From assembly GCA_022710345.1 (NCBI GenBank), contig JAKLHB010000001.1:1-49064 (forward strand): 49,064 nt of DNA, read 5' to 3'. The notes under the pieces are model-generated. The model was not told the origin of the DNA. It saw only the letters and a list, made by a program, of their open reading frames with translations, and did not search any database. Position numbers and translations under genes: made by a program. This stretch comes from Planctomycetota bacterium. Lineage in GTDB: Bacteria > Planctomycetota > Uabimicrobiia > Uabimicrobiales > JABWCH01. Shown piece by piece: positions 16,364 to 26,828 of the stretch. Within the stretch, counting starts at the first letter, position 1, and every line of letters begins with the position of its first letter.

Positions 16364-16590
16364 AACTTTCTGCCAGTGCTGTGACTCTTTCAGAGTGCCG
16401 CACTGCCTCCTAAACATCGAAGAAGTACTTCTTCAAAAGACATTGAAAAATAAGAAAACATCTTGTAATCATACTGCCATTTGGTATGTCTTAACTAGAC
16501 AAAAATACGAAAATTGTATTAGAATGTTTGAGATGAGGAATTATTGTACAAACCCAAGAAGAACTCTCGTATAAGATTGCACTGCAGCAA

Positions 16591-16831
16591 AGTTTTTTGC
16601 CGCGAAGCGGCTTGGGGATAAAGCCTGGGGTTTCTAACCCCAGGTTATGTCGAGTCTTATCGTGTCCTGATGGGACACAGGAAACCGTAGCATTCTATCA
16701 AAGAGAACTTTTATTTCCGAGCGAATTTTTATTTGATTGATACCAGAGGTTTCTGTAGTAACACGGAAAGCAAGTTTTACAATCCTTACAATAAAAATGC
16801 ATAATGCAAGTGCTTTATATGCTGAAACTTA
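16591..16831 (+). repeat. Structured repeat unit A (5'-diverged copy, long-tail subtype)
   Basis: Near-identical to 16999-17238. Hairpins gccgc-gaa-gcggc (16599-16611), cctgggg-tttctaa-ccccagg (16624-16644) and gtgtcc-tgatg-ggacac (16662-16678). Confidence 0.9.
16777..16805 (+). promoter_or_regulatory. sigma70-like promoter in the tail of repeat unit A (TTACAA-17-CATAAT)
   Basis: ttacaa at 16777-16782, 17-nt spacer, cataat at 16800-16805. The same arrangement recurs in unit B at 17184-17212. Confidence 0.35.
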
Positions 16832-16931
16832 CTGCGCTTCCCGATTGAATTCAATATAAAAATTAATATACTGTACCCAGGGTTGGTTTGCTCATTCTGG
16901 ATATTGTATTGAATCTGTTTGAGAAGCGCGG
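16832..16931. mobile_element. 100-bp MITE-like insertion with terminal inverted repeats and a TA duplication
   Basis: It interrupts the A|B junction, which is contiguous at the B|C junction (gaaactta|atatctc). Ends are ctgcgcttc ... gaagcgcgg (8/9 complementary), and ta flanks both sides (16830-16831 and 16932-16933). Confidence 0.6.
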
Positions 16932-16933
16932 TA

Positions 16934-17238
16934 ATATCTCTACTCGATGCCGTTGCATGGCCAGGACAAAAAAATTGTCATTTTGCCTTTTCTTTTGTGT
17001 TTTTTGCCGCGAAGCGGTTTGGGAATAAAGCCTGGGGTTTCTAACCCCAGGTTATGTCGACTCTTATCGTGTCCTGATGCGACACAGGAAACCGTAGCAT
17101 TCTATCAAAGAGAACTTTTATTTCCGAGCGAATTTTTATTTGATTGATACCAGAGGTTTCTGTAGTAACACAGAAAGCAAGTTTTACAATCCTTACAATA
17201 AAAATGCATAATGCAAGTGCTTTATATGCTGAAACTTA
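16934..17238 (+). repeat. Structured repeat unit B (full 305-bp unit, long-tail subtype)
   Basis: Starts atatctctactcgatgcc and ends gctgaaactta. Has the same three hairpins as unit A (17006-17017, 17031-17051, 17069-17085). Confidence 0.9.
17184..17212 (+). promoter_or_regulatory. sigma70-like promoter in the tail of repeat unit B (TTACAA-17-CATAAT), pointing into unit C and the island
   Basis: ttacaa at 17184-17189, 17-nt spacer, cataat at 17207-17212. Confidence 0.35.
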
Positions 17239-17447
17239 ATATCTCTACTCGATACCGTTGCATGGCCAAGACAAAAAAATTTGCCATTTTGCCTTTTCTT
17301 TTGTGTTTTTTGCCGCGAAGCGGTTTGGGAATAAAGCCTGGGGTTTCTAACCCCAGGTGTAGATGTGTCTTGCAGTGCCCTGAAGGGGCACCGGAAACTT
17401 CCTATAGCTCGAATCCTCATGTCTGCAGCGACAGAGAATCGCCCTAC
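17239..17447 (+). repeat. Structured repeat unit C (short-tail subtype), the left inverted repeat of the island
   Basis: 17245-17447 aligns to the reverse complement of 26615-26828. The first half is shared with A/B. The second half is a diverged version of the same hairpin architecture (gtgccc-tgaag-gggcac at 17375-17391). Confidence 0.9.
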
Positions 17448-17560
17448 AATATCTGGATACAGATTAAGGATTTTTTTAGTATATTCTAGCACAACAAGTT
17501 AGAATTTCCGAAAATCCACATAAGTGCAAGACTATTTTTTAATAGCAACCATGGAAAGCA

Positions 17561-20500
17561 TTATGAGAGCATGATTTTTTCGGAAACTTTTTTCAGAATT
17601 GTATTGATTTTCTCCAGTTGCTTGGGATTCGGAATGTTTCCAGCAAGCTCGATGCGTAGATGGAATTGGAGGCCACATCCGGCTGTTTCTTGGAGAAGCT
17701 CGCCCATCACTTCGGCGAGATTTTGTAATTCTTCAGGCTTGATAGCTACTTCTGCAATAGGAACGCCAGATTTTTTTGGCTTACCAGGTTGAAGTGGTAC
17801 TAACGAGTCTTCTTTTATAGGGATACGGAGTTTTATTTTGTTGGCTTCTGCCAGAGTGGTTCCAAACGTATGCATACCTGAATCGAGGGTGCATTCCAGA
17901 AGATGAGATTGGATCGCACCCTGGATGGCTTCTCGTACCGTAGGCCAGGGCAAAATTTTTCCACCCTTCTGGGATAAAGCGGAAAAGATGGCTACTGCCG
18001 TTGTTTCTTGTGCCTGCCATGCGCCAGGAAGCTTTTCTGGCATAATGTCATCCATTGGAATGGCCGGCGGTGGCGGTTGTAATCTTGCCGATTCCCAGAG
18101 AAGCCCATTGGGAATCTCTTCGCCCAGTATACTGGCTTCCTGGCAGGTAAGCCAAAGTTTCCCTTCTGCGACCGCTTTTTTCACTGCATTCTGAACTACA
18201 GCTTTGTCCGCTTGGGGAATGGTGACAGATTCTTCATAGCCTTGCTTGGGAACCTGGATAGTGACTCCGGAGAAGTATTGGCATAGATTTTCCAGAGCAA
18301 TCTCAGGATTTTGCCAGAGGCTAGGCAGTTTTCCTGGTGATAAAAAAGACGTGGGTATATCACTTAAGGTGGCGTGTTCGGGTAATACCACTTCCAACGC
18401 TGGATCTTGGAAAGAACTTTCGTCCGGTTCCTCATGCCAAAAGGTCTTTTTCGTGTGATCCGGACGGTTCAATTGAAGTACAAAGAAACCTTCCCTTGCC
18501 CCTTGTACAAGCGTATCCAAAATTTTTTTCGACCGCAACATCTTGGGAAGGTGAGGAAACTGGGCAAACGCATTTACCAGGTCTTTGACACGACGCGAGT
18601 GTTCTCCTTCACGCCAAAGGTCGTAAGGGCCTCCTGGTAGAAGAGCATCTGCGCTGATCTCACTATCCTGAATGCGCACCTCTTTGGTCTGTTTAATCAA
18701 GGAGAATAGCGGCTGATCTTGGATTACGAGCTTGATAGCCTGGATTTCATTCTTCTCGCCTACTGCGACCACAATCGAATAAGCCTGCCGAATCATGTCA
18801 GTAATTTTCTTGCGGGCCGATTCGAGATTGCTGTTGAGGAGCTCTTGCCGGATCGGGTCTAGCTCCTCTTTTTTAAACTGCAACCGCACTTCCTCCCAGC
18901 CCAGATATTCTCGAATGGTATTACGGCAGATATCCAGGCCGTCTTTGGAAGGAACCGCCAATACAATGCTGTTGCGAAAGACCCTGGGCCGATCCGAGGA
19001 GGTAGTTTCTTCGAGAAACCGTCTGGCCTCTGGGTTAGGCTTTCCTGGATCCGAGGCGGCACTCGGGCCAAGAATGGCAAAATGAAAATCGCCGTCATCT
19101 TCTATATCCTTCGGCTTCATCGGCAAGGTATGAACTTTTACTCCCAGTCCTATGGCCCCTTCTTTTAAGCTTTTGATTTTGGGGATTTCGACGATCAACC
19201 TGGATTCGATGACCTCCGGCACTATCCTTAGACAGGCATCGTGGTGCATCTGCTTGAGATTGGGCCTGGAACCTAGCCGCCATGATTTAGGAAGCTTAAG
19301 GCTTTCACCCGTTGCCAGCGCAGCCATGCTTTCGTCCAGGAACCAGGAAATCTGCGCCCAACGGATCAATCCTTTTTCTAGCTCAATCTTATCTGGATGA
19401 GTTGCACCCAAAAGTAGCAACAAATCCCGAGTGAGCGCTTTTTGGCTAATTGGCTGGGAATGCAAAAAGGTAGCTACTACCGCTTGTTCGATCTCCCGGT
19501 GAGACAAAGCGACCTCTTTCTGGATTTCTCTGGCTTTTGTCAGTTCCCCTTCTAAGATGCCTGCCCATGCCTGTTTTTTGCCTTCATACTCTTCCGTAGC
19601 CGCGACATTCGCCAATTCTTGTGCCGCTTCCGAAAGGTCTTTGAAGCCAGGCTTTCCTAAAAAGATGTTGGCACCAATCAGAGGAGAATCGTCCCATTTC
19701 TCCGCTTCCCGCAGAGCTAGAGCAAAGGTTCTGAGAACACCACGTGTGCGCTGGAAACCTTCCAGATTTGTCCATTTGGTATAAAAAATTTCGGTAAGGT
19801 CGGGATGGAAAGGATAGCTCAGGAAGAATCGTTCCTCCGCCTGTTTGCCTTCTTTGCGCGTCTGGTCGTCCAGTTCCCCAATGCCTTTTAAAGCTGCCAC
19901 CAGATGGCAGCGGAAATGGTCTTTGCACTGGATGCTTTCCGGGGTAAAAAAACGCCGACGCAGCACCTCGGCCACATCTTCCTTAACCACCGGCTGGATG
20001 CCTTCCTCACTTTCGCGGCGGAAGATGGAATAAATTTCTTGGGTTAGCTCTTTTCCCAATGTATCGCTTTTTCTTGGATCTGTTGCCAAGAGAGAGGCAA
20101 CCACAGCACAAGAGTCCACCTTGGTAGCCGCCTGGGTCAGGCACTGGAAAAAATTGAGCAACTTGCCACGCCAATTGGGATCCAAAGCCACCTTCTCTCG
20201 TGCATACATCAAAACCTCATCGCAAAGAATCAGAGTGCTGAGGTTTTCCTGCGCAGGCATGCTCAACAGGTCCAGAAGAAGATTTTCTGCCGGGGCACTT
20301 TCCCTTTCCTCCTCCTCTCCCCTGACATGAAGCAGTTTCAGGCCATTTTTACCTGCCAATTGAAATGCCAGAATACTCCACGGATTTTTGAGCCATTTCC
20401 GAGTTCCATCCATGCCCAATACTTCCATGCCTTTTTCCACATCCAGCTTATCAAAAGCCAGAACAGCGATTCGAGCTTGTGCTGGACTGATGCCAATATG

Positions 20501-20860
20501 CTGGCAGAACTCCTGCACGGCAGGCAGAGTGGGCAAATGCTTGGGATCATGGACAAGATGGTATAAGGTGATAAGCGCGTGCGTTTTGCCACCACCATAG
20601 GTAAGTTCCAGTTGATGCACTGCCTTGGCATTTTTCTTAGCCAATCGTAATACCACATCTTTGGCCAGTTCACGTAGATTATAGGTAGGATAGGTCAAAG
20701 AAAAAAACTCCGTAGGGTCTTCATATTGCGAACGCCGATTCTTCTTCATCGCCACATCGTATAAATCAGCAGCAAATAGGGAAAGCGAAAGCTCTCCCGA
20801 CCGGAGTTCCTCCCGAAGGTGGACTACTTCATGCCATGGTTTCCAGGAAAGTTTTGTCAT
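17561..20860 (-). CDS. DUF499-family ATPase (large P-loop protein of helicase-methylase-ATPase type defence cassettes)
   Basis: The N-terminus (KPWHEVVHLREEL...LFAADLYDV...FFSLTYPTYNLREL...LELTYGGGKTHALITLYHL) matches my memory of the DUF499 signature. 1099 aa. Confidence 0.8.
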   Translation of the reverse strand: MTKLSWKPWHEVVHLREELRSGELSLSLFAADLYDVAMKKNRRSQYEDPTEFFSLTYPTYNLRELAKDVVLRLAKKNAKAVHQLELTYGGGKTHALITLYHLVHDPKHLPTLPAVQEFCQHIGISPAQARIAVLAFDKLDVEKGMEVLGMDGTRKWLKNPWSILAFQLAGKNGLKLLHVRGEEEERESAPAENLLLDLLSMPAQENLSTLILCDEVLMYAREKVALDPNWRGKLLNFFQCLTQAATKVDSCAVVASLLATDPRKSDTLGKELTQEIYSIFRRESEEGIQPVVKEDVAEVLRRRFFTPESIQCKDHFRCHLVAALKGIGELDDQTRKEGKQAEERFFLSYPFHPDLTEIFYTKWTNLEGFQRTRGVLRTFALALREAEKWDDSPLIGANIFLGKPGFKDLSEAAQELANVAATEEYEGKKQAWAGILEGELTKAREIQKEVALSHREIEQAVVATFLHSQPISQKALTRDLLLLLGATHPDKIELEKGLIRWAQISWFLDESMAALATGESLKLPKSWRLGSRPNLKQMHHDACLRIVPEVIESRLIVEIPKIKSLKEGAIGLGVKVHTLPMKPKDIEDDGDFHFAILGPSAASDPGKPNPEARRFLEETTSSDRPRVFRNSIVLAVPSKDGLDICRNTIREYLGWEEVRLQFKKEELDPIRQELLNSNLESARKKITDMIRQAYSIVVAVGEKNEIQAIKLVIQDQPLFSLIKQTKEVRIQDSEISADALLPGGPYDLWREGEHSRRVKDLVNAFAQFPHLPKMLRSKKILDTLVQGAREGFFVLQLNRPDHTKKTFWHEEPDESSFQDPALEVVLPEHATLSDIPTSFLSPGKLPSLWQNPEIALENLCQYFSGVTIQVPKQGYEESVTIPQADKAVVQNAVKKAVAEGKLWLTCQEASILGEEIPNGLLWESARLQPPPPAIPMDDIMPEKLPGAWQAQETTAVAIFSALSQKGGKILPWPTVREAIQGAIQSHLLECTLDSGMHTFGTTLAEANKIKLRIPIKEDSLVPLQPGKPKKSGVPIAEVAIKPEELQNLAEVMGELLQETAGCGLQFHLRIELAGNIPNPKQLEKINTILKKVSEKIMLS

Positions 20861-21212
20861 ATATGGATTCTCCTATTATCTTTTCTACTTCCATCAATTC
20901 CTTTATAAGATAGGGCAAATCTTTTTCGATGATATTCCAAATAACATTCATATCAACATGAAAATGTCCATGGATTAAACGGTCTCTAGTTCCTATAATG
21001 CCTTTCCAAGGAATTCGAGTAAATTCTTTGGAAGTTTCTGGAGATATCTTTTTCGCCGCTTCGCCTATCATTTCCAGAAGTCTTAAAACAGCAAGAACCA
21101 GCACTTCTTCATTCTCAAATTCTTGTCTTGTTTTTCCATCAATAAATTTTATTACTTTTTGGCTTGCGTCTAACATATGGCGAATGCGAATTCTGTCTTC
21201 ATGATTGAACAT
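20829..21212 (-). CDS. hepT: HEPN-domain (DUF86) toxin of an MNT/HEPN pair
   Basis: R-x4-H motif in GTRDRLIHGH. About 127 aa. 14-nt overlap with the upstream MNT gene, and the 3' end overlaps the DUF499 start by 32 nt. Confidence 0.85.
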   Translation of the reverse strand: MFNHEDRIRIRHMLDASQKVIKFIDGKTRQEFENEEVLVLAVLRLLEMIGEAAKKISPETSKEFTRIPWKGIIGTRDRLIHGHFHVDMNVIWNIIEKDLPYLIKELMEVEKIIGESIYDKTFLETMA

Positions 21213-21498
21213 ATTCTACCTGGGCTTCTTTTATTACAGCATCACGAAAATATGGACTTAGAAAATCAACCGTATTCAAATCCACTTTTCTTCCGAGCAT
21301 AGAAGAAAGGCTATCTTGTAGCTCAAAAAAAGCAAAACCTGGAGTATGCCCAGATTCAAACTCTACCAATATGTCAATATCACTCTCTGGGCCAAAATCG
21401 TCCCTCAAAACCGAGCCAAATAAGGCAAACTTTTTAATATGATGGACTCTACAAAAATCACTGATTTCCTTTTTCGGAATAAGAATGTTTTTATTCAT
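21199..21498 (-). CDS. mntA: Minimal nucleotidyltransferase (MNT) antitoxin
   Basis: LFGSVLRDDFGPESDIDILVEF (GS-x9-D-x-D). AGGA RBS upstream of the ATG at 21498. The track start at 21534 has no RBS. Confidence 0.85.
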   Translation of the reverse strand: MNKNILIPKKEISDFCRVHHIKKFALFGSVLRDDFGPESDIDILVEFESGHTPGFAFFELQDSLSSMLGRKVDLNTVDFLSPYFRDAVIKEAQVEYVQS

Positions 21499-21561
21499 AA
21501 AACAGTTCCTGTAGTTTAGTATTTTCTGGATCATTAGGGAAGTTTTGTCATAGGGATGCTC

Positions 21562-21798
21562 CTAAAACCTTGTAATTTCTACATAATGGTGTTTTTGACG
21601 TGCCTCTTGCACCATATTTTCCAATCGGGCTGCTACGTCATCTGGAATCCATTCGTTTCCGCACATAGAGCATAAACTAGCAGGTACATCCCTGATTACC
21701 ACGAGACCCTCACCAAAGTCTGTTGTAAAAGTGGTTTTACCTTGTTTTTTTGTTCCACCACACAAGGGACATTGGTCAGGCAAAGTCGCAAGTTTCAT
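21562..21798 (-). CDS. YgiT-type (MqsA N-terminal-like) zinc-finger protein, 78 aa
   Basis: CPLCGG...(27 aa)...CSMCGNEW, a two-CxxC zinc ribbon. gggagaag RBS. No adjacent toxin-like partner. Confidence 0.7.
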   Translation of the reverse strand: MKLATLPDQCPLCGGTKKQGKTTFTTDFGEGLVVIRDVPASLCSMCGNEWIPDDVAARLENMVQEARQKHHYVEITRF

Positions 21799-21816
21799 AA
21801 CTTTCTTCTCCCATTG

Positions 21817-22570
21817 CTAATTTTCTGTCTTCTCAATCCAGGTATCTTGTTTATTCGTGTTCTCTCTCCCCTTTGCTACCAGATGGTTGCTGATGCTTTC
21901 GAGGAGGGATCTTTCTTTGGTGCCATTTTCGGAGAGTTCGATGAGTGCCTGGAGAAATCGGGGGAATATGGCGAGCCTACGCAGTCCTCGAGATTCGAGG
22001 TATTCGTCTACTTTGGCCACATCTCCTTCTTTCCAGAGGTGCATGATGCGATGGATCTGGTCAATCAAAGGAATGGGAAGGTTGTGAGCGGTGGAATAGC
22101 CCATGTTTTTTTGTTTGCGTTGGACCCAGGTTTTGAGCTTGAGTTGGGAGCCGGTGCCTTTGGAAATTGGTTCGTCTTCTTTCATTTCCTCTGCATCGTC
22201 TGCATCGTCTGCATCATCTTCGTCCTCTGTGGTGGAAGATTGCTTCCCCCCGGTGCGAGCCAGAATGTCGTACTGCTCTGTCAGGTCCCGATCCGACAAT
22301 CCACAAGACAGGGAATACAGGATGCACACACCGCTGGGAACCTCATCCATGCCAAAGTCGTGGCGGTGCAAAAGGTAGTATGAGTGCTGCTCGACAAGCG
22401 GCCAGCGGTCTGCGCGCCGGCCAAATATGCAAGGTGGAAATATGCCCATGCCGGACATTCTTCTCATGCACAGAATCCAAAGAAGCCTGCTTCAAGGGAA
22501 ACGCCACCTCGATCAGACGAGGCTGATCGTTGCTTGGTTTATCATTCATCGAAATTGATCCTTTCGGCAT
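21817..22570 (-). pseudogene. DUF1156-family DNA methylase remnant: N-terminal and C-terminal pieces only, in two frames
   Basis: ORF 22343-22570 encodes [45 protein letters not shown] (DUF1156 signature) and then stops. ORF 21817-22467, in another frame, carries a typical C-terminal helix region (LIDQIHRIMHLWKEGDV...FLQALIELS). No SAM-binding or catalytic motifs fit in the about 250 codons available. Confidence 0.7.
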
Positions 22571-22852: not shown

Positions 22853-25800
22853 TTAGTCCCCTTCCTCCATCTGCCATATTTCCTCTGCTGCTATCACCAC
22901 GCCGCCTCGGGGCTGTCCCAATAGTCTTCCAAATGGATCTTGGATACGCAAGAGCCTTGGGTGGGGTGTAGCGCAATCAAAGACTACATATAGCCAATAA
23001 CGGGAGCGCAGGTTGCAGGCTTTCACCCATTCATTGGTGGAAAGCTCGATATTACCTATATTGGCACGGCCTTTGACCTCGATGGCGCGCTCTTCTCCGT
23101 CCGGACGCTTCGAAACGAGATCAAAACCGGGCCAATGGACAAGCCCGCAAGCCTTTGCTTTCTCTGGCGTGGAAACGTCGCTGACTTGCGCGCCTTTGGA
23201 TTGTTCATGCGCAATGGCGATTTGCATGGCTATTTTTTCCATGTTTTCGTCGTATCTTTGCCCATCGTTTTCGTTATATGCTTGCTGATCTTGCAAGCCT
23301 TGTGGAGGAACTACCAGGGCAAATGCTAGAAAGGTTACCTTCTGCGATACGATCAATTCTGGCTCTCGGGCCAATCGTCGCAGGCTGTTTTCCAATTGGT
23401 GTCCCAAAAGTTTCTGGCGTTCTTTAATTCGCAAGAGTTCTGCCTTGGCTTCTGGATATCCAGCTCGCTCTTTCTCCGTCAACCTGGCTCGAATCATTGC
23501 CAATTCCGCAGATTGGAAATCATAACCGCGTTTGATAAAATTCTGCCTTTCCTCCAAAGCGTCTAGAAGAACCTGTCGTCGCGCCTTAGCAATGGGGAAT
23601 GCGATCTGCTGCAGGATATAAGCCTTGACTCGATCTAAGGAATTTGTAGCCAGGCTGGCAAACGAAATCTCGGCTTCCGGAACCCGCTGTGTGCCTTGCA
23701 GCAGCAATAGAGCTTCGACCGGGCATTCTTCTAAAGTTCCATTCTTATTCTGCCGAATCCCTACCAGCCTGTATTCGAGCACTTCCTTACGAGCGAAGGA
23801 CGGGATCTCAGAATCCGCCTCCCGCTCCACAGTAAAGACTGCCAGATAAAAAAGGTACGCTTCTGGAGCATGGGGGTTGATGAACACGCCGCCTTGTAGT
23901 GCCTCTGGACGAAAGAACGAGCAGACAAAGCTACGAAACTTATCAAAGAAAGGATCCCCAGGACGCAAGAAAATCGCGGAGTTGGGATCAGAAGGCTTGC
24001 AAACAGTAAAATGCTCCTGCTGCGAAGGCAAATAAGCATCCAAAGCATAGAGAAGAAATTCCAGCTTAGGAGGAAACGAGGTAAAGCAAAAATGATCCAT
24101 GCTTCCCTTCATGCCGATTCCCAATAACTCAGCCGCCTTTTCCATGAACCAGTAAACATAGCCAGGCAAAAGATGGTAATATTCTTCTGGATCCATAGCC
24201 CCGCTGGCGGTATTTTTATGATTTTCCTCTGCGGTGAGATGATTGTCCTCTACATCGCAAATTTCCCGCAGCCTTTTTACCGAGACCAGTTCCTCTATTT
24301 TTTTCTCGATCTCTGTGGTTCCTTCCTCGGTAATGGTCTGTTCCATATATTCCTTAAGGGAGATTCCTTCCAACAGCCTGCCGATGCAATCGAATACCTT
24401 GTCCGATCCAAGTTCTTTGCGAATCGTTTCCAGCTTCTTTAAAAGAGTGGCCAGTACCCTGCCTTCCCGGGTGTTTTTGGCGACCAGATTGAGGATCACG
24501 ACCGGATCGTGTTTCTGTCCGTAGCGGTGGATTCGGCCCATCCTTTGCTCTAAGCGGGCTGGATTCCAAGGGATATCGTAGTTGATCATAAGCCAGCAAA
24601 ATTGGAGGTTGATTCCTTCTCCTGCCGCATCGGTTCCTATGAGATAGGTTGCGCCTCCTTCCGCTGCACTTTTCTGGAAAAACTTTACCTGCTCTTCCCG
24701 CTCTTCATACGGCATTCCACCATGAACCTGGGCAATTTTTTCCGTAAACCCAAGCCCTTCCATTCGTCGCACAAGGAAATGAAGCGTATCCCGATGCTCG
24801 GTAAAGATGATGATCTTTTCCTCGCGGTATTGCGGGTCTTGGAGAATCTCTTGCAGTTTGCTGAATTTCGATTCCTCCCCTTTCTGGTATACCCGTTCTG
24901 CCAAGTCTAGAACATTGGAAAGCTGCGATTTTTCTACCTCCAACTCAGCCAATGAAGTGGCTACTATGCCTTCGAGCAGATTGGTTTCGGCAATCTCATT
25001 TTCTTCCTGGCCCTCTTCTGCCTCTTCTTCCTCTGCGGTCTTTTGTTCCCAGACATCCGGATAATTATCGAGCTTACGTTGCAAAGCCATAAGCCCGGCG
25101 GAAGTAATTTTCCCTGAACGGATGGCTTCTATCCAATCTTCTAGCTTCTGAAGGCGGTTCTTTAAAGACTGCACAAGAGCGTAGGTGGAACTCGCCAGAC
25201 GACGCTGAAAAATCATCATGGCAAACCGCACCGCAGAGCGATTTAAAATACGTGCACGGTTGTAGAATGTCCTGAGATAGTCGCTGGTCTTGTCATAAAG
25301 CTCCTGTTCGCTGTCTTCGCCTGAGGTCAATTGATACGTCAATGTATCAGAGATGCGCATGGGATAAAGGGGAGTTCCATCCGCATTCACCATCTCCTCT
25401 TTCGTGCGTCTTAGAAAATGGTGATATCGAAAAGGTTTTCGTCCTTGAGTAGATCCAGGGCATAGATGACCCGAGTAATCACGAAATGATTCCCAGGTAG
25501 GAAAAATCTCGGGAACCAGGAGCTTCCAAAGCGCGTAATAGGGAAAATCTTTCCCCATGTGCGGAGTGGCTGTCAGCAGCAACAAATGCGTTGCATGCCA
25601 GGCAAGCCGCCATCTGGGATCACGGTCTGCAATGCCAGCAAGTGCTTCGGCAAGATGGTATCGTTCGGTCTTGCGCACTCGTAAATCTAGCTCACGATCT
25701 GCGGACAGTTTGTGCGCTTCGTCGAAAATTACCAAATCATAAGGAACCACCGTTTCCTCTTGCAAACGGCAGAACATAGTATCTCCAGCCAAAGTATCCA

Positions 25801-26512
25801 GACTGACAATGACAAAGTCGCTCTCTGGCCCGATAAAAGGATTAGCGGAACGAGCTTCGATGCCCCGGACAATATGAAATCTCAGACCAAATAAGGTTCT
25901 TAGCTCTCGTTCCCAGTTGCCAAGAAGCCCTGCTGGCGGGATAATCAAGACTCTTTTGATCGCTCTTCTGGCGATCATTTCCCGGATATATAAGCCGGAC
26001 ATGATGGTTTTGCCAGCACCGGCATCATCGGCCAGAAGGAAACGCAGGCAAGGCTCTGGTAGCAAATATTCATAGACGGCGACCCGTTGATGAGGCAAAG
26101 GGGCGATCAAAGAAGTCTCTGTGGCAAAAACCGGATTAAACAGATGCCCCAAACCAAGCCTTTCTCCTTCGGCCACCAGTCTTACCATTTCAGGATTCGC
26201 AGAAAAATCTGGGCTTACAGGCTCCGAAGGCTCTTCGGGCCTCTCTATTCCATAAACAGGGCTGGCCTCTTTGGCAATCGTAAGTTCCTGCGCACCATGT
26301 GAACTATACGCAGTCTCGGTATGCAAAATTCGCTGCCAGGCTACCATAGTAGGCTTGGCTTTGCCATTCTCCCAACGATTTATGGTGGCAAACGACACGC
26401 CCAAAATTTCTGCCAAATGGCTCTGCGTCAATCCATGCCTGGCTCGCAATCTTTTGATACGAATTGGATAATCAGACGGAACCTGGTATTTCAACGAACT
26501 ATCCTCGCTCAA
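22853..26512 (-). CDS. SNF2/RapA-like superfamily-2 helicase with N-terminal XRE-type HTH and C-terminal PD-(D/E)xK-like (DUF3883-like) domain
   Basis: HGLTQSHLAEILGVSFATINRWENG (HTH); LLADDAGAGKTI (motif I), FDEAHKL (II), LLLTATP (III), GTDAAGEGINLQ (V), WNPARLEQRMGRIHRYGQ (VI). C-terminus: DLVSKRPDGEERAIEVKG...YWLYVV. Only TTG starts are available (26512 or 26494). Confidence 0.9.
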   Translation of the reverse strand: MSEDSSLKYQVPSDYPIRIKRLRARHGLTQSHLAEILGVSFATINRWENGKAKPTMVAWQRILHTETAYSSHGAQELTIAKEASPVYGIERPEEPSEPVSPDFSANPEMVRLVAEGERLGLGHLFNPVFATETSLIAPLPHQRVAVYEYLLPEPCLRFLLADDAGAGKTIMSGLYIREMIARRAIKRVLIIPPAGLLGNWERELRTLFGLRFHIVRGIEARSANPFIGPESDFVIVSLDTLAGDTMFCRLQEETVVPYDLVIFDEAHKLSADRELDLRVRKTERYHLAEALAGIADRDPRWRLAWHATHLLLLTATPHMGKDFPYYALWKLLVPEIFPTWESFRDYSGHLCPGSTQGRKPFRYHHFLRRTKEEMVNADGTPLYPMRISDTLTYQLTSGEDSEQELYDKTSDYLRTFYNRARILNRSAVRFAMMIFQRRLASSTYALVQSLKNRLQKLEDWIEAIRSGKITSAGLMALQRKLDNYPDVWEQKTAEEEEAEEGQEENEIAETNLLEGIVATSLAELEVEKSQLSNVLDLAERVYQKGEESKFSKLQEILQDPQYREEKIIIFTEHRDTLHFLVRRMEGLGFTEKIAQVHGGMPYEEREEQVKFFQKSAAEGGATYLIGTDAAGEGINLQFCWLMINYDIPWNPARLEQRMGRIHRYGQKHDPVVILNLVAKNTREGRVLATLLKKLETIRKELGSDKVFDCIGRLLEGISLKEYMEQTITEEGTTEIEKKIEELVSVKRLREICDVEDNHLTAEENHKNTASGAMDPEEYYHLLPGYVYWFMEKAAELLGIGMKGSMDHFCFTSFPPKLEFLLYALDAYLPSQQEHFTVCKPSDPNSAIFLRPGDPFFDKFRSFVCSFFRPEALQGGVFINPHAPEAYLFYLAVFTVEREADSEIPSFARKEVLEYRLVGIRQNKNGTLEECPVEALLLLQGTQRVPEAEISFASLATNSLDRVKAYILQQIAFPIAKARRQVLLDALEERQNFIKRGYDFQSAELAMIRARLTEKERAGYPEAKAELLRIKERQKLLGHQLENSLRRLAREPELIVSQKVTFLAFALVVPPQGLQDQQAYNENDGQRYDENMEKIAMQIAIAHEQSKGAQVSDVSTPEKAKACGLVHWPGFDLVSKRPDGEERAIEVKGRANIGNIELSTNEWVKACNLRSRYWLYVVFDCATPHPRLLRIQDPFGRLLGQPRGGVVIAAEEIWQMEEGD

Positions 26513-26614
26513 AATAGTCTTCTGTTTGGGAATAGTAATACTGCCATTTCTTGCCGATTATGGACTAGATTGGGAAGCAAAAATTTCCTAGTTCATAGCA
26601 TTCCAAAAGGTTAT

Positions 26615-26828
26615 GTACGGCGATTCTCTGTCGCTACAGACATGAGGATTCGAGCTATAGGAAGTTTCCGGTGCCCCTTCAGGGCACTGCAAGACACATC
26701 TACACGTGGGGTTAGAAACCGGTTAGAAACCCCAGGCTTTATCCCCAAGCCGCTTCGCGGCAAAAAACACAAAAGAAAAGGCAAAATGGCAAATTTTTTT
26801 GTCTTGGCCATGCAACGGCATCGAGTAG
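26615..26828 (-). repeat. Structured repeat unit D, the right inverted repeat of the island and the 5' leader region of the helicase operon
   Basis: Its reverse complement matches 17245-17447, with roughly seven substitutions by hand count plus an 11-bp tandem duplication (ggttagaaacc x2, 26710-26731). Confidence 0.9.

What the first reader, a model, noticed from the sequence alone, without database searches (positions are those of the whole stretch)
20846..21563. The MNT/HEPN pair looks like an insertion: it is flanked by direct repeats that duplicate the DUF499 RBS and first four codons
- On the minus strand, the sequence after the zinc-finger stop reads AGGAGcATCCctATGACAAAACTTcCC (21563-21537). 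This gives a dead-end mini-ORF, MTKLP-stop.
- The real DUF499 start reads AGGAGaATCCatatATGACAAAACTTtCC (20874-20846), giving MTKLSWKP....
- The roughly 690 bp between the two copies hold exactly the mntA and hepT genes. The HEPN ORF ends by reading through the second repeat into the DUF499 gene.
- This is a recombination scar showing that a toxin-antitoxin cassette was dropped precisely at the start of the ATPase gene.
Basis: seen in the sequence. Interest (0 to 1): 0.6.

Follow-up and report, generated by a model that had tools for sequence, protein, structure and literature searches.

The report
Fossil ATPase start flanking toxin-antitoxin cassette
A 29-base copy of the ribosome-binding site and first five codons of an anti-phage ATPase gene sits upstream of an inserted toxin-antitoxin pair; it is a genuine recombination scar at a spot where such defence operons often swap accessory genes, but it is a modest finding rather than a new kind of system.

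Summary
The repeat is real. On the minus strand, 21564-21536 and 20875-20845 match at 26 of 29 aligned bases plus a 2-nt indel. No shuffle reached that score, and no other copy exists in the 5-Mb genome. The repeats bracket a 52-nt leader, mntA and hepT.

The upstream copy is a fossil HmaC (DUF499) start. It scores higher against a start-site profile from 49 related loci than any other position in the window, including the live HmaC start.

The operon is a decayed Hma / Type-1 BREX-related system with its methylase reduced to a stub. In 46 of 69 related loci the methylase|ATPase junction carries 138-3610 nt of varied cargo, so it is a cargo hot spot. At least three other loci carry similar fossil duplicates of the flanking core genes.

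- The nearest relative without the cassette shows hepT deletion remnants, not an empty single-copy site.
- The hepT|HmaC-start fusion is shared by three lineages.
- That fusion is probably older than the duplication.

No transposase, integrase or terminal inverted repeats are present. The best explanation is illegitimate or homology-facilitated recombination between Hma variants carrying different cargo. This is a scar of a known kind, of moderate-to-low interest.

The parts
21536..21564 (-). Upstream repeat copy. It is a fossil HmaC translation-initiation region: TAG (ZnF stop) overlapping AGGAG, a 7-nt spacer, then ATG ACA AAA CTT CCC T.
   Evidence: The family PWM score is 18.8 bits, the top score in the window. 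The 7-nt SD-ATG spacer and Pro5 codon match relatives.
21534..21551 (-). Dead-end mini-ORF MTKLP-stop. Its TAA overlaps an in-frame ATG (21534) that would add 12 residues to MntA.
   Evidence: MntA homologue profiles and gene calls in six assemblies start at 21498 instead.
21199..21498 (-). mntA, a minimal nucleotidyltransferase antitoxin of 99 aa.
   Evidence: Pfam NTP_transf_2 6.9e-13. NCBIfam MntA 9.7e-13, below the curated cut-off. PADLOC PDC-S09 1e-27.
20829..21212 (-). hepT, a HEPN RNase toxin of 127 aa. Residues 114-127 are read-through of the HmaC SD/start.
   Evidence: Pfam HepT-like 9.9e-23. The R-x4-H motif and invariant columns are kept, and the 14-aa tail is absent from homologues.
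20845..20875 (-). Downstream repeat copy: the live SD and start of HmaC. It has a 9-nt spacer, and the extra AT puts hepT out of frame with the ATGA stop used in L109.
17561..20860 (-). HmaC / DUF499 AAA+ ATPase, 1099 aa, intact.
   Evidence: PADLOC HmaC 1.5e-69. Pfam DUF499 6.5e-18.
21562..21798 (-). YgiT-type zinc-ribbon gene of 78 aa. It is orphaned here; in relatives it pairs with a DUF4258 toxin.
   Evidence: TIGR03831 1.6e-12. DUF4258-ZnF pairs occur in G004, L052 and L058.
21817..22467 (-). C-terminal stub of the HmaB (DUF1156-type) methylase.
   Evidence: It aligns to the C-end of methylases in G004 and about 70 loci.
22853..26512 (-). HmaA, a fusion of HTH, SNF2 helicase and NOV_C.
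   Evidence: PADLOC HmaA 4.5e-161. Pfam.

Best explanation
The upstream copy is a fossil of an HmaC (DUF499 ATPase) ribosome-binding site and first 16 coding bases. It was left directly after the YgiT zinc-finger gene when two versions of the methylase|ATPase junction of an Hma / Type-1 BREX-related operon were joined by recombination.

One version had the zinc-finger gene directly in front of HmaC, as in L052. The other had mntA-hepT already fused to the HmaC SD/start, as in L109 and ancestrally in G004.

The left join is illegitimate. It lies 16 nt into the first HmaC start and leaves the dead-end ORF MTKLP*. The right side is either a homologous crossover inside HmaC (homology-facilitated illegitimate recombination, i.e. 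a cargo swap between alleles) or, less likely, a second illegitimate join with duplication of the target.

No dedicated mobile-element machinery is involved. The conserved core genes on either side act as recombination handles, which is why this junction is a general cargo hot spot.

Shown here:
- the repeat and its statistical significance;
- that the upstream copy is HmaC-start-like;
- the cargo hot spot;
- analogous fossils in other loci;
- that the hepT|HmaC fusion is shared by three lineages.

Inferred:
- which segment was the incomer;
- the type of crossover on the right side;
- the timing of the event.

A later 2-nt insertion in the live spacer made hepT run 32 nt into HmaC.
For: Repeat significance.

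The upstream copy matches the family HmaC-start consensus (M-T/A-K-L-P-W) better than the live start does (18.8 v 11.9 bits). It is the top hit of 98,098 window positions.

L052 shows ZnF followed 30 nt later by ATGACCAAACTTCCCTGG.

Hot spot:
- 46 of 69 loci have 138-3610 nt between the methylase stop and the HmaC start; 23 have 73 nt or less.
- The cargo is heterogeneous: AAA_15/21 ATPases, DUF1016/YhcG nucleases, DUF433/DUF5615, DUF4258, Fic, STAND.

Analogous scars:
- L026 has a 230-nt truncated HmaC 5' copy, then a DUF433 cassette, then full HmaC. The two copies are 90% identical. Their differences fall 1/3/14 by codon position (14 synonymous v 3 non-synonymous codons). They therefore diverged as functional alleles before being joined.
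- L058 and G004 carry 61-nt and 42-nt copies of their own methylase 3' end just after the ZnF gene.

hepT homology ends at residue about 113, exactly where the repeat begins.

The hepT-TIR fusion is shared with L109 and G004.
Against: - Only one close comparator lineage lacks the cassette, and it shows secondary deletion, so no true empty site or donor allele has been seen.
- The L109 contig starts inside mntA, so its upstream context is unknown.
- For the window itself, 29 nt is too short to tell allelic origin from in-situ duplication.
- The upstream and downstream copies share window-specific states (ACA, CTT, ATCC in the spacer) not seen in L109 or G004. That fits a recent local duplication or gene conversion equally well.
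- Only 4 of about 47 cargo loci show recognisable fossils of core genes.
Confidence: 0.65

Rival explanations
1. A free mntA-hepT segment was inserted once into an ancestral ZnF|HmaC junction. The insertion event itself created a 29-nt target duplication, and all three lineages (window, G004, L109) descend from it.
For: - The repeats flank exactly the leader, mntA and hepT.
- hepT family homology ends at the repeat edge.
- L052 has the predicted uninterrupted architecture.
- G004 also has ZnF upstream of hepT remnants.
Against: - Third-codon divergence is 0.49 between the window and G004, and 0.29-0.34 between the window and L109. A neutral upstream copy that old should match the live copy at about 65-78%, not 26/29 (binomial P about 0.003-0.09).
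- The G004 spacer has no HmaC-start fossil (PWM -4.8) and carries a methylase fossil instead.
- A 29-nt target duplication fits no known transposase.
- There is no recombinase and there are no terminal inverted repeats.
Confidence: 0.17
2. Local templated duplication. Replication template switching, or repair of a break or deletion between ZnF and mntA, copied 29 nt from the nearby HmaC start as filler. This would be unrelated to how the cassette arrived.
For: - The two copies share lineage-specific bases absent from the L109 and G004 starts.
- The region shows other deletions: the methylase stub, loss of DUF4258, and the G004 remnants.
Against: - The upstream copy has the consensus Pro5 codon and the 7-nt spacer of relatives, which the live copy lacks. 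A copy of the present live sequence would need reversions, or the live copy changed afterwards.
- The copy sits exactly where an HmaC start is expected after ZnF, as in L052.
Confidence: 0.12
3. The upstream copy is kept by selection as a leader. A strong SD and a 5-codon ORF whose TAA overlaps an ATG (TAATG) would load ribosomes and couple translation into mntA.
For: The geometry AGGAG-7 nt-ATG-5 codons-TAATG is seen. The copy is unchanged in six assemblies.
Against: - Those assemblies are the same species, so their identity carries no information.
- MntA profiles align from residue 13 of the long ORF, and gene callers start at 21498, which has its own AGGA SD.
- Neither G004 variant has such a leader upstream: the ZnF-side spacer and the mntA upstream region in C164.
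- This would explain maintenance, not origin.
Confidence: 0.05
4. Chance resemblance of two AT-rich start regions.
For: Both are SD+ATG contexts, which share AGGAG and ATG by function.
Against: 0/200 and 0/100 shuffles. Unique in 5 Mb. None of 44 control loci shows it.
Confidence: 0.01

Closest known systems
Homology-facilitated illegitimate recombination (HFIR) during foreign-DNA uptake (de Vries and Wackernagel, PNAS 2002; cited from my own knowledge, not read here)
   Same: One end is anchored in homology (a core Hma gene). The other end is joined illegitimately with 0-1 nt of microhomology. This leaves a truncated duplicate of recipient sequence next to new cargo. L026 shows the two copies were diverged functional alleles.
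   Different: This is inferred from sequence only. For the window the duplicate is 29 nt, so the allelic origin cannot be shown. No transformation or donor has been observed.
Hma system (PADLOC HmaA/B/C), equal to the Type-1 DUF499-centred BREX-related system (PMC12839542, NAR 2026)
   Same: SNF2 helicase with a C-terminal NOV_C module and a DUF499 ATPase, in the canonical order with the methylase between them. That paper reports auxiliary HEPN, MNT and other effectors associated with these systems.
   Different: Here the methylase is a 216-aa stub, so the system is probably defunct. The paper describes HEPN fused in frame to the DUF499 N-terminus. Here hepT is a separate gene that overlaps HmaC out of frame.
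MntA-HepT type VII toxin-antitoxin pairs
   Same: The nucleotidyltransferase gene lies upstream of, and overlaps, the HEPN RNase gene. The R-x4-H motif and family invariants are retained.
   Different: The NCBIfam equivalog cut-offs are not reached (27.6 and 47.9 bits v 60). hepT has lost its native C-terminal codons and stop, and carries a 14-aa tail encoded by the HmaC start region.
Transposon or IS target-site duplication; integron cassettes
   Same: Direct repeats of target sequence flank inserted genes.
   Different: - No transposase or integrase is present.
- No terminal inverted repeats or attC-like element are present.
- 29 nt is far longer than usual target-site duplications.
- The copies differ by 3 substitutions and an indel.
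Cargo hot spots flanked by conserved core genes (for example P2/P4 defence hot spots, Rousset et al. 2022, cited in PMC12839542)
   Same: Conserved flanking genes with highly variable defence or toxin-antitoxin cargo between them.
   Different: Here the hot spot lies inside a defence operon, between its methylase and ATPase genes, and not in a phage or satellite.

Membership tests
Hma / Type-1 BREX-related (DUF499-centred) system | SNF2-type helicase HmaA | tested here: met
   PADLOC HmaA 4.5e-161. Pfam SNF2-rel_dom, Helicase_C and NOV_C.
Hma / Type-1 BREX-related (DUF499-centred) system | DUF499 AAA+ ATPase HmaC | tested here: met
   PADLOC HmaC 1.5e-69. Pfam DUF499 6.5e-18. The NCBIfam DUF499_antiphage score is well below its equivalog cut-off.
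Hma / Type-1 BREX-related (DUF499-centred) system | Intact N6 DNA methylase HmaB (DUF1156 type) | tested here: not met
   Only a 216-aa C-terminal stub remains, with no Pfam or PADLOC hit. It aligns to methylase C-ends of relatives.
MntA-HepT type VII TA | HEPN RNase with the R-x4-6-H motif | tested here: met
   Pfam HepT-like 9.9e-23. R76-D-R-L-I-H81 is invariant in alignment A1.
MntA-HepT type VII TA | Cognate minimal nucleotidyltransferase immediately upstream and overlapping | tested here: met
   NTP_transf_2 6.9e-13. The mntA 3' end (21199) and the hepT start (21212) overlap by 14 nt.
MntA-HepT type VII TA | Antitoxin AMPylates the toxin; toxin cleaves RNA | not testable with these tools
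   Biochemical property.
Transposon/IS insertion with target-site duplication | Transposase or integrase, and terminal inverted repeats at the insert ends | tested here: not met
   No such ORF lies in 17.5-26.5 kb. There are no inverted repeats at the cassette ends.
Homology-facilitated illegitimate recombination scar | Truncated duplicate of a recipient gene next to the insert, adjacent to an intact homologous copy | tested here: met
   A 29-nt fossil in the window and a 230-nt fossil in L026.
Homology-facilitated illegitimate recombination scar | The two copies derive from different alleles, with divergence concentrated at synonymous sites | tested here: inconclusive
   Met in L026 (14 synonymous v 3 non-synonymous codons). 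The window copy is too short to test (1 coding difference).

The most novel reading that the evidence does not exclude
The methylase|ATPase junction of Hma / Type-1 BREX-related operons is a dedicated cargo-exchange site. Accessory toxin-antitoxin and defence modules would be swapped between alleles by recombination anchored in the conserved core genes. Each swap would leave datable fossil copies of the methylase 3' end or the ATPase 5' end. Such swaps may also be the route by which HEPN toxins became fused to the N-terminus of DUF499 ATPases. The out-of-frame hepT/HmaC overlap seen here, and the ATGA stop-start overlap in L109, would be intermediates on that route.
Probability: 0.35. Interest if true: 0.55.

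Novelty: new member of a known kind. Interest (0 to 1): 0.33.

Why it matters
The scar shows how small toxin-antitoxin modules become embedded inside anti-phage operons without any mobile-element machinery. Two thirds of the related loci sampled here carry cargo at the same junction. Fossil duplicates of core genes could be used to order and date acquisition events. The hepT-HmaC overlap is also a plausible intermediate towards the HEPN-DUF499 fusions reported to be widespread. For this particular genome the consequence is small, because the system has already lost its methylase.

Tried and rejected
No read-level test for strain variants lacking the cassette could be made, and read laying was not used.
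- The metagenome pattern scan for SD+HmaC start found only the window's own species plus three chance hits in unrelated genes.
- A search with an HmaC N-terminal fragment used a hybrid query: the first 60 aa came from the window and the last 17 aa from G004. It returned many short N-terminal ORFs. The three I inspected (L110-L112) are frameshifted or decayed Hma loci on long-read contigs, not duplications. I dropped the idea of a recurrent break after 'NLRELA'.
- An apparent similarity between the window spacer and the G004 spacer (P=0.03) is better explained as a copy of G004's own methylase 3' end.
- The G004 'ATGAAGAAACCG' is not supported as an HmaC-start fossil (PWM -4.8).
- The L044 repeat belongs to a GxxExxY/PDDEXK_3 element with its own CACAGAGG repeats. 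It is not a core-gene fossil.
- No close HepT relative was found in 400 Planctomycetota genomes (45% identity or less). No second copy of the cassette exists in the window's own genome.
- Rfam and the promoter/terminator scans of the region found nothing notable.
- The G004 contig C164 (HNH-MNT-HmaC) shares exactly 99 nt with C528 and carries a 25-nt tandem artefact. I treat it as an alternative variant in the sample joined by scaffolding, not as proof of a second locus.
Full report
**Observation**

On the minus strand the zinc-finger gene (21798-21562) ends in TAG. That stop overlaps AGGAG, and the sequence continues CATCCCT ATG ACA AAA CTT CCC TAA. The live HmaC start reads T AGGAG AATCCATAT ATG ACA AAA CTT TCC TGG.

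- They match at 26 of 29 aligned positions, with a 2-nt (AT) insertion in the downstream spacer.
- The shared 12-mer is unique to these two sites in the window. The expected count is 0.02, and 0 of 100 shuffles gave two or more.
- The repeat finder lists the pair.
- A gapped local alignment gives z=7.4 (0/200 shuffles). In 44 other cargo-bearing Hma loci the same test never exceeded z=2.4.
- The pattern occurs nowhere else in the 5.0-Mb assembly.
- The upstream copy is identical in all six independent assemblies of the species. The downstream copy is identical in the four contigs that reach it.

**Genes**

PADLOC, Pfam and NCBIfam identify the following on the minus strand:

| Gene | Coordinates | Evidence |
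|---|---|---|
| HmaA, HTH-SNF2-NOV_C helicase | 26512-22853 | PADLOC 4.5e-161 |
| YgiT zinc ribbon | 21798-21562 | TIGR03831 1.6e-12 |
| mntA | 21498-21199 | Pfam NTP_transf_2 6.9e-13 |
| hepT | 21212-20829 | Pfam HepT-like 9.9e-23 |
| HmaC / DUF499 | 20860-17561 | PADLOC 1.5e-69 |

The 216-aa ORF at 22467-21817 is only the C-terminal stub of the methylase. This is the Hma system, also described as a Type-1 DUF499-centred BREX-related system (PMC12839542). It is decayed here.

hepT is 127 aa, whereas its 12 closest homologues end at 111-115 aa. Family homology stops at residue about 113, which is exactly where the repeat begins. The remaining 14 residues are read-through of the HmaC SD and start.

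**The upstream copy is an HmaC-start fossil**

Across 80 Hma loci from many phyla the ATPase N-terminus is M-[A/T/P]-K-L-P-W-K-P-W, and three loci read exactly MTKLPW. I built a 16-nt profile from 49 of these starts.

- The upstream copy scores 18.8 bits, the single best of 98,098 positions in the window.
- The live start scores 11.9 bits.

The upstream copy also keeps the 7-nt SD-ATG spacer and the Pro5 codon found in the closest relatives. The live copy has a 9-nt spacer and Ser5.

**A cargo hot spot**

In 69 loci where both the methylase stop and the HmaC start are visible, 23 have them 73 nt or less apart (often 3-26 nt, or overlapping). The other 46 have 138-3610 nt between them.

The 91 ORFs in these gaps are heterogeneous:
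- AAA_21/AAA_15 ATPases (15 ORFs);
- DUF1016/YhcG nucleases;
- DUF433 and DUF5615/PIN_10;
- DUF4258;
- Fic;
- STAND NTPases.

A related series is visible:

| Locus | Arrangement between methylase and HmaC |
|---|---|
| L052 | DUF4258 - ZnF - 30 nt - ATGACCAAACTTCCCTGG (HmaC) |
| L058 | DUF4258 - ZnF - DUF433 - HmaC |
| L026 | ZnF - ATPase pair - truncated HmaC 5' - DUF433 - HmaC |
| G004 | DUF4258 - ZnF - spacer - HmaC |

**Closest relatives**

In a 5.8-billion-protein search, HmaC's nearest relatives are 100% identical (its own species), 78% identical (G004-like, a Ca. Brocadiia MAG), and then 64% or less.

*G004-like lineage.* Two Logan contigs and contig C528 show ZnF, a 119-nt spacer, and an intact HmaC. 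The spacer contains:
- a 42-nt copy of the locus's own methylase 3' coding region (score 49 against 25±3.7 for shuffles);
- two hepT 3' fossils ('DMNIIWNI' and 'ELKKIGA') contiguous with the HmaC SD;
- no HmaC-start fossil.

A second G004 variant, C164, has mntA, hepT deleted after codon 3, and then the same SD. C164 and C528 overlap by exactly 99 nt, which looks like an assembly k-mer, so they are alternative variants in that sample.

*L109 lineage.* A third lineage (hepT 76% identical at protein level; 83.5% nt identity across the aligned mntA-hepT segment) ends ...GAAAAAATAGGAGCTTTGCAATGAAAAAGTTGCCCTGGAAA. The hepT stop overlaps the ATG of an HmaC.

The fusion of hepT's 3' end to the HmaC SD is therefore ancestral to all three lineages. 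The cassette-free relatives are secondary losses of the toxin, not empty sites.

**Timing**

Third-codon divergence is 0.29-0.34 between the window and L109, and 0.49 between the window and G004. A neutral copy as old as the hepT-HmaC fusion should match the live copy at roughly 65-78%. Observing 26/29 has P of about 0.003-0.09.

The two copies also share spacer bases (ATCC.T) and codons (ACA, CTT) that the L109 and G004 starts lack. This favours a later event, or gene conversion, over the original insertion. The numbers are small, so the inference is weak.

**Mechanism**

No transposase, integrase or terminal inverted repeats are associated with the cassette. Analogous scars exist elsewhere.

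- *L026.* It has a 230-nt truncated HmaC 5' copy that begins at the SD. The copy is 90% identical to the live one, with differences falling 1/3/14 by codon position (14 synonymous, 3 non-synonymous codons). The two copies therefore diverged as functional genes in different lineages and were then joined. That pattern is what homology-facilitated illegitimate recombination predicts.
- *L058 and G004.* Each carries a copy of its own methylase 3' end directly after ZnF, which is the mirror-image scar.

I therefore read the window's repeat as the same kind of scar. A ZnF|HmaC junction and an mntA-hepT|HmaC junction were combined, with the left break 16 nt into HmaC. Which segment was the incomer, and whether the right side was a homologous crossover, remain inferred.

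A later AT insertion in the live spacer explains why hepT misses the ATGA stop and runs 32 nt into HmaC.

**Rivals and verdict**

The rival explanations are scored in their own section of this report:
- a single ancient insertion with target duplication;
- a local templated duplication;
- a selected leader ORF;
- chance.

This is a new example of a known kind of scar, of moderate-to-low interest. The wider hot-spot pattern is the more interesting lead.

Noticed in passing
window 17245-17448 and 26614-26828: Inverted repeats of about 205 nt, 97% complementary, bracket the whole helicase-to-ATPase island. Related repeat units are piled up at 16561-17398.
   Followed up: partly
window 21799-21816, compared with G004 C528 (L016) 1609-1966: The DUF4258 toxin gene that precedes the YgiT zinc-finger gene in G004, L052 and L058 is absent from the window. 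About 58 nt stand in place of about 358 nt, which leaves an orphan antitoxin-like ZnF.
   Followed up: partly
L016 (G004 C528) about 2263-2305, and L058 3632-3692: Copies of 42 nt and 61 nt of each locus's own methylase 3' coding region (…LQALIELS…) lie just downstream of the ZnF gene. The same methylase segment is involved in two very distant loci, and this is unexplained.
   Followed up: partly
L044 3464-3497 and 3882-3915: A GxxExxY/PDDEXK_3 gene inserted at the methylase|HmaC junction is flanked by CCACGGAGG.CACAGAGG.CTCAGAGA repeats. The methylase's last 11 codons are encoded by the left repeat.
   Followed up: no
L017 (G004 C164) 790-840: A 25-nt tandem duplication sits at the point where contig C528 ends, and it frameshifts HmaC in the MAG scaffold. 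It is probably a scaffolding artefact. Logan contigs of the same sequence have an intact 1097-aa gene.
   Followed up: yes
L026 2191-3980 and several other loci (L040, L097, L029, L091, L042, L071, L083, L093): A gene pair recurs as cargo directly upstream of HmaC. It consists of an AAA_15/AAA_21 ATPase of about 420 aa and a partner of about 190-260 aa.
   Followed up: no
L111 and L112 (ENA long-read contigs): These are decayed Hma loci reduced to N-terminal HmaC fragments, surrounded by DUF433, DUF5615/PIN_10, HicB and AbiEii modules.
   Followed up: partly
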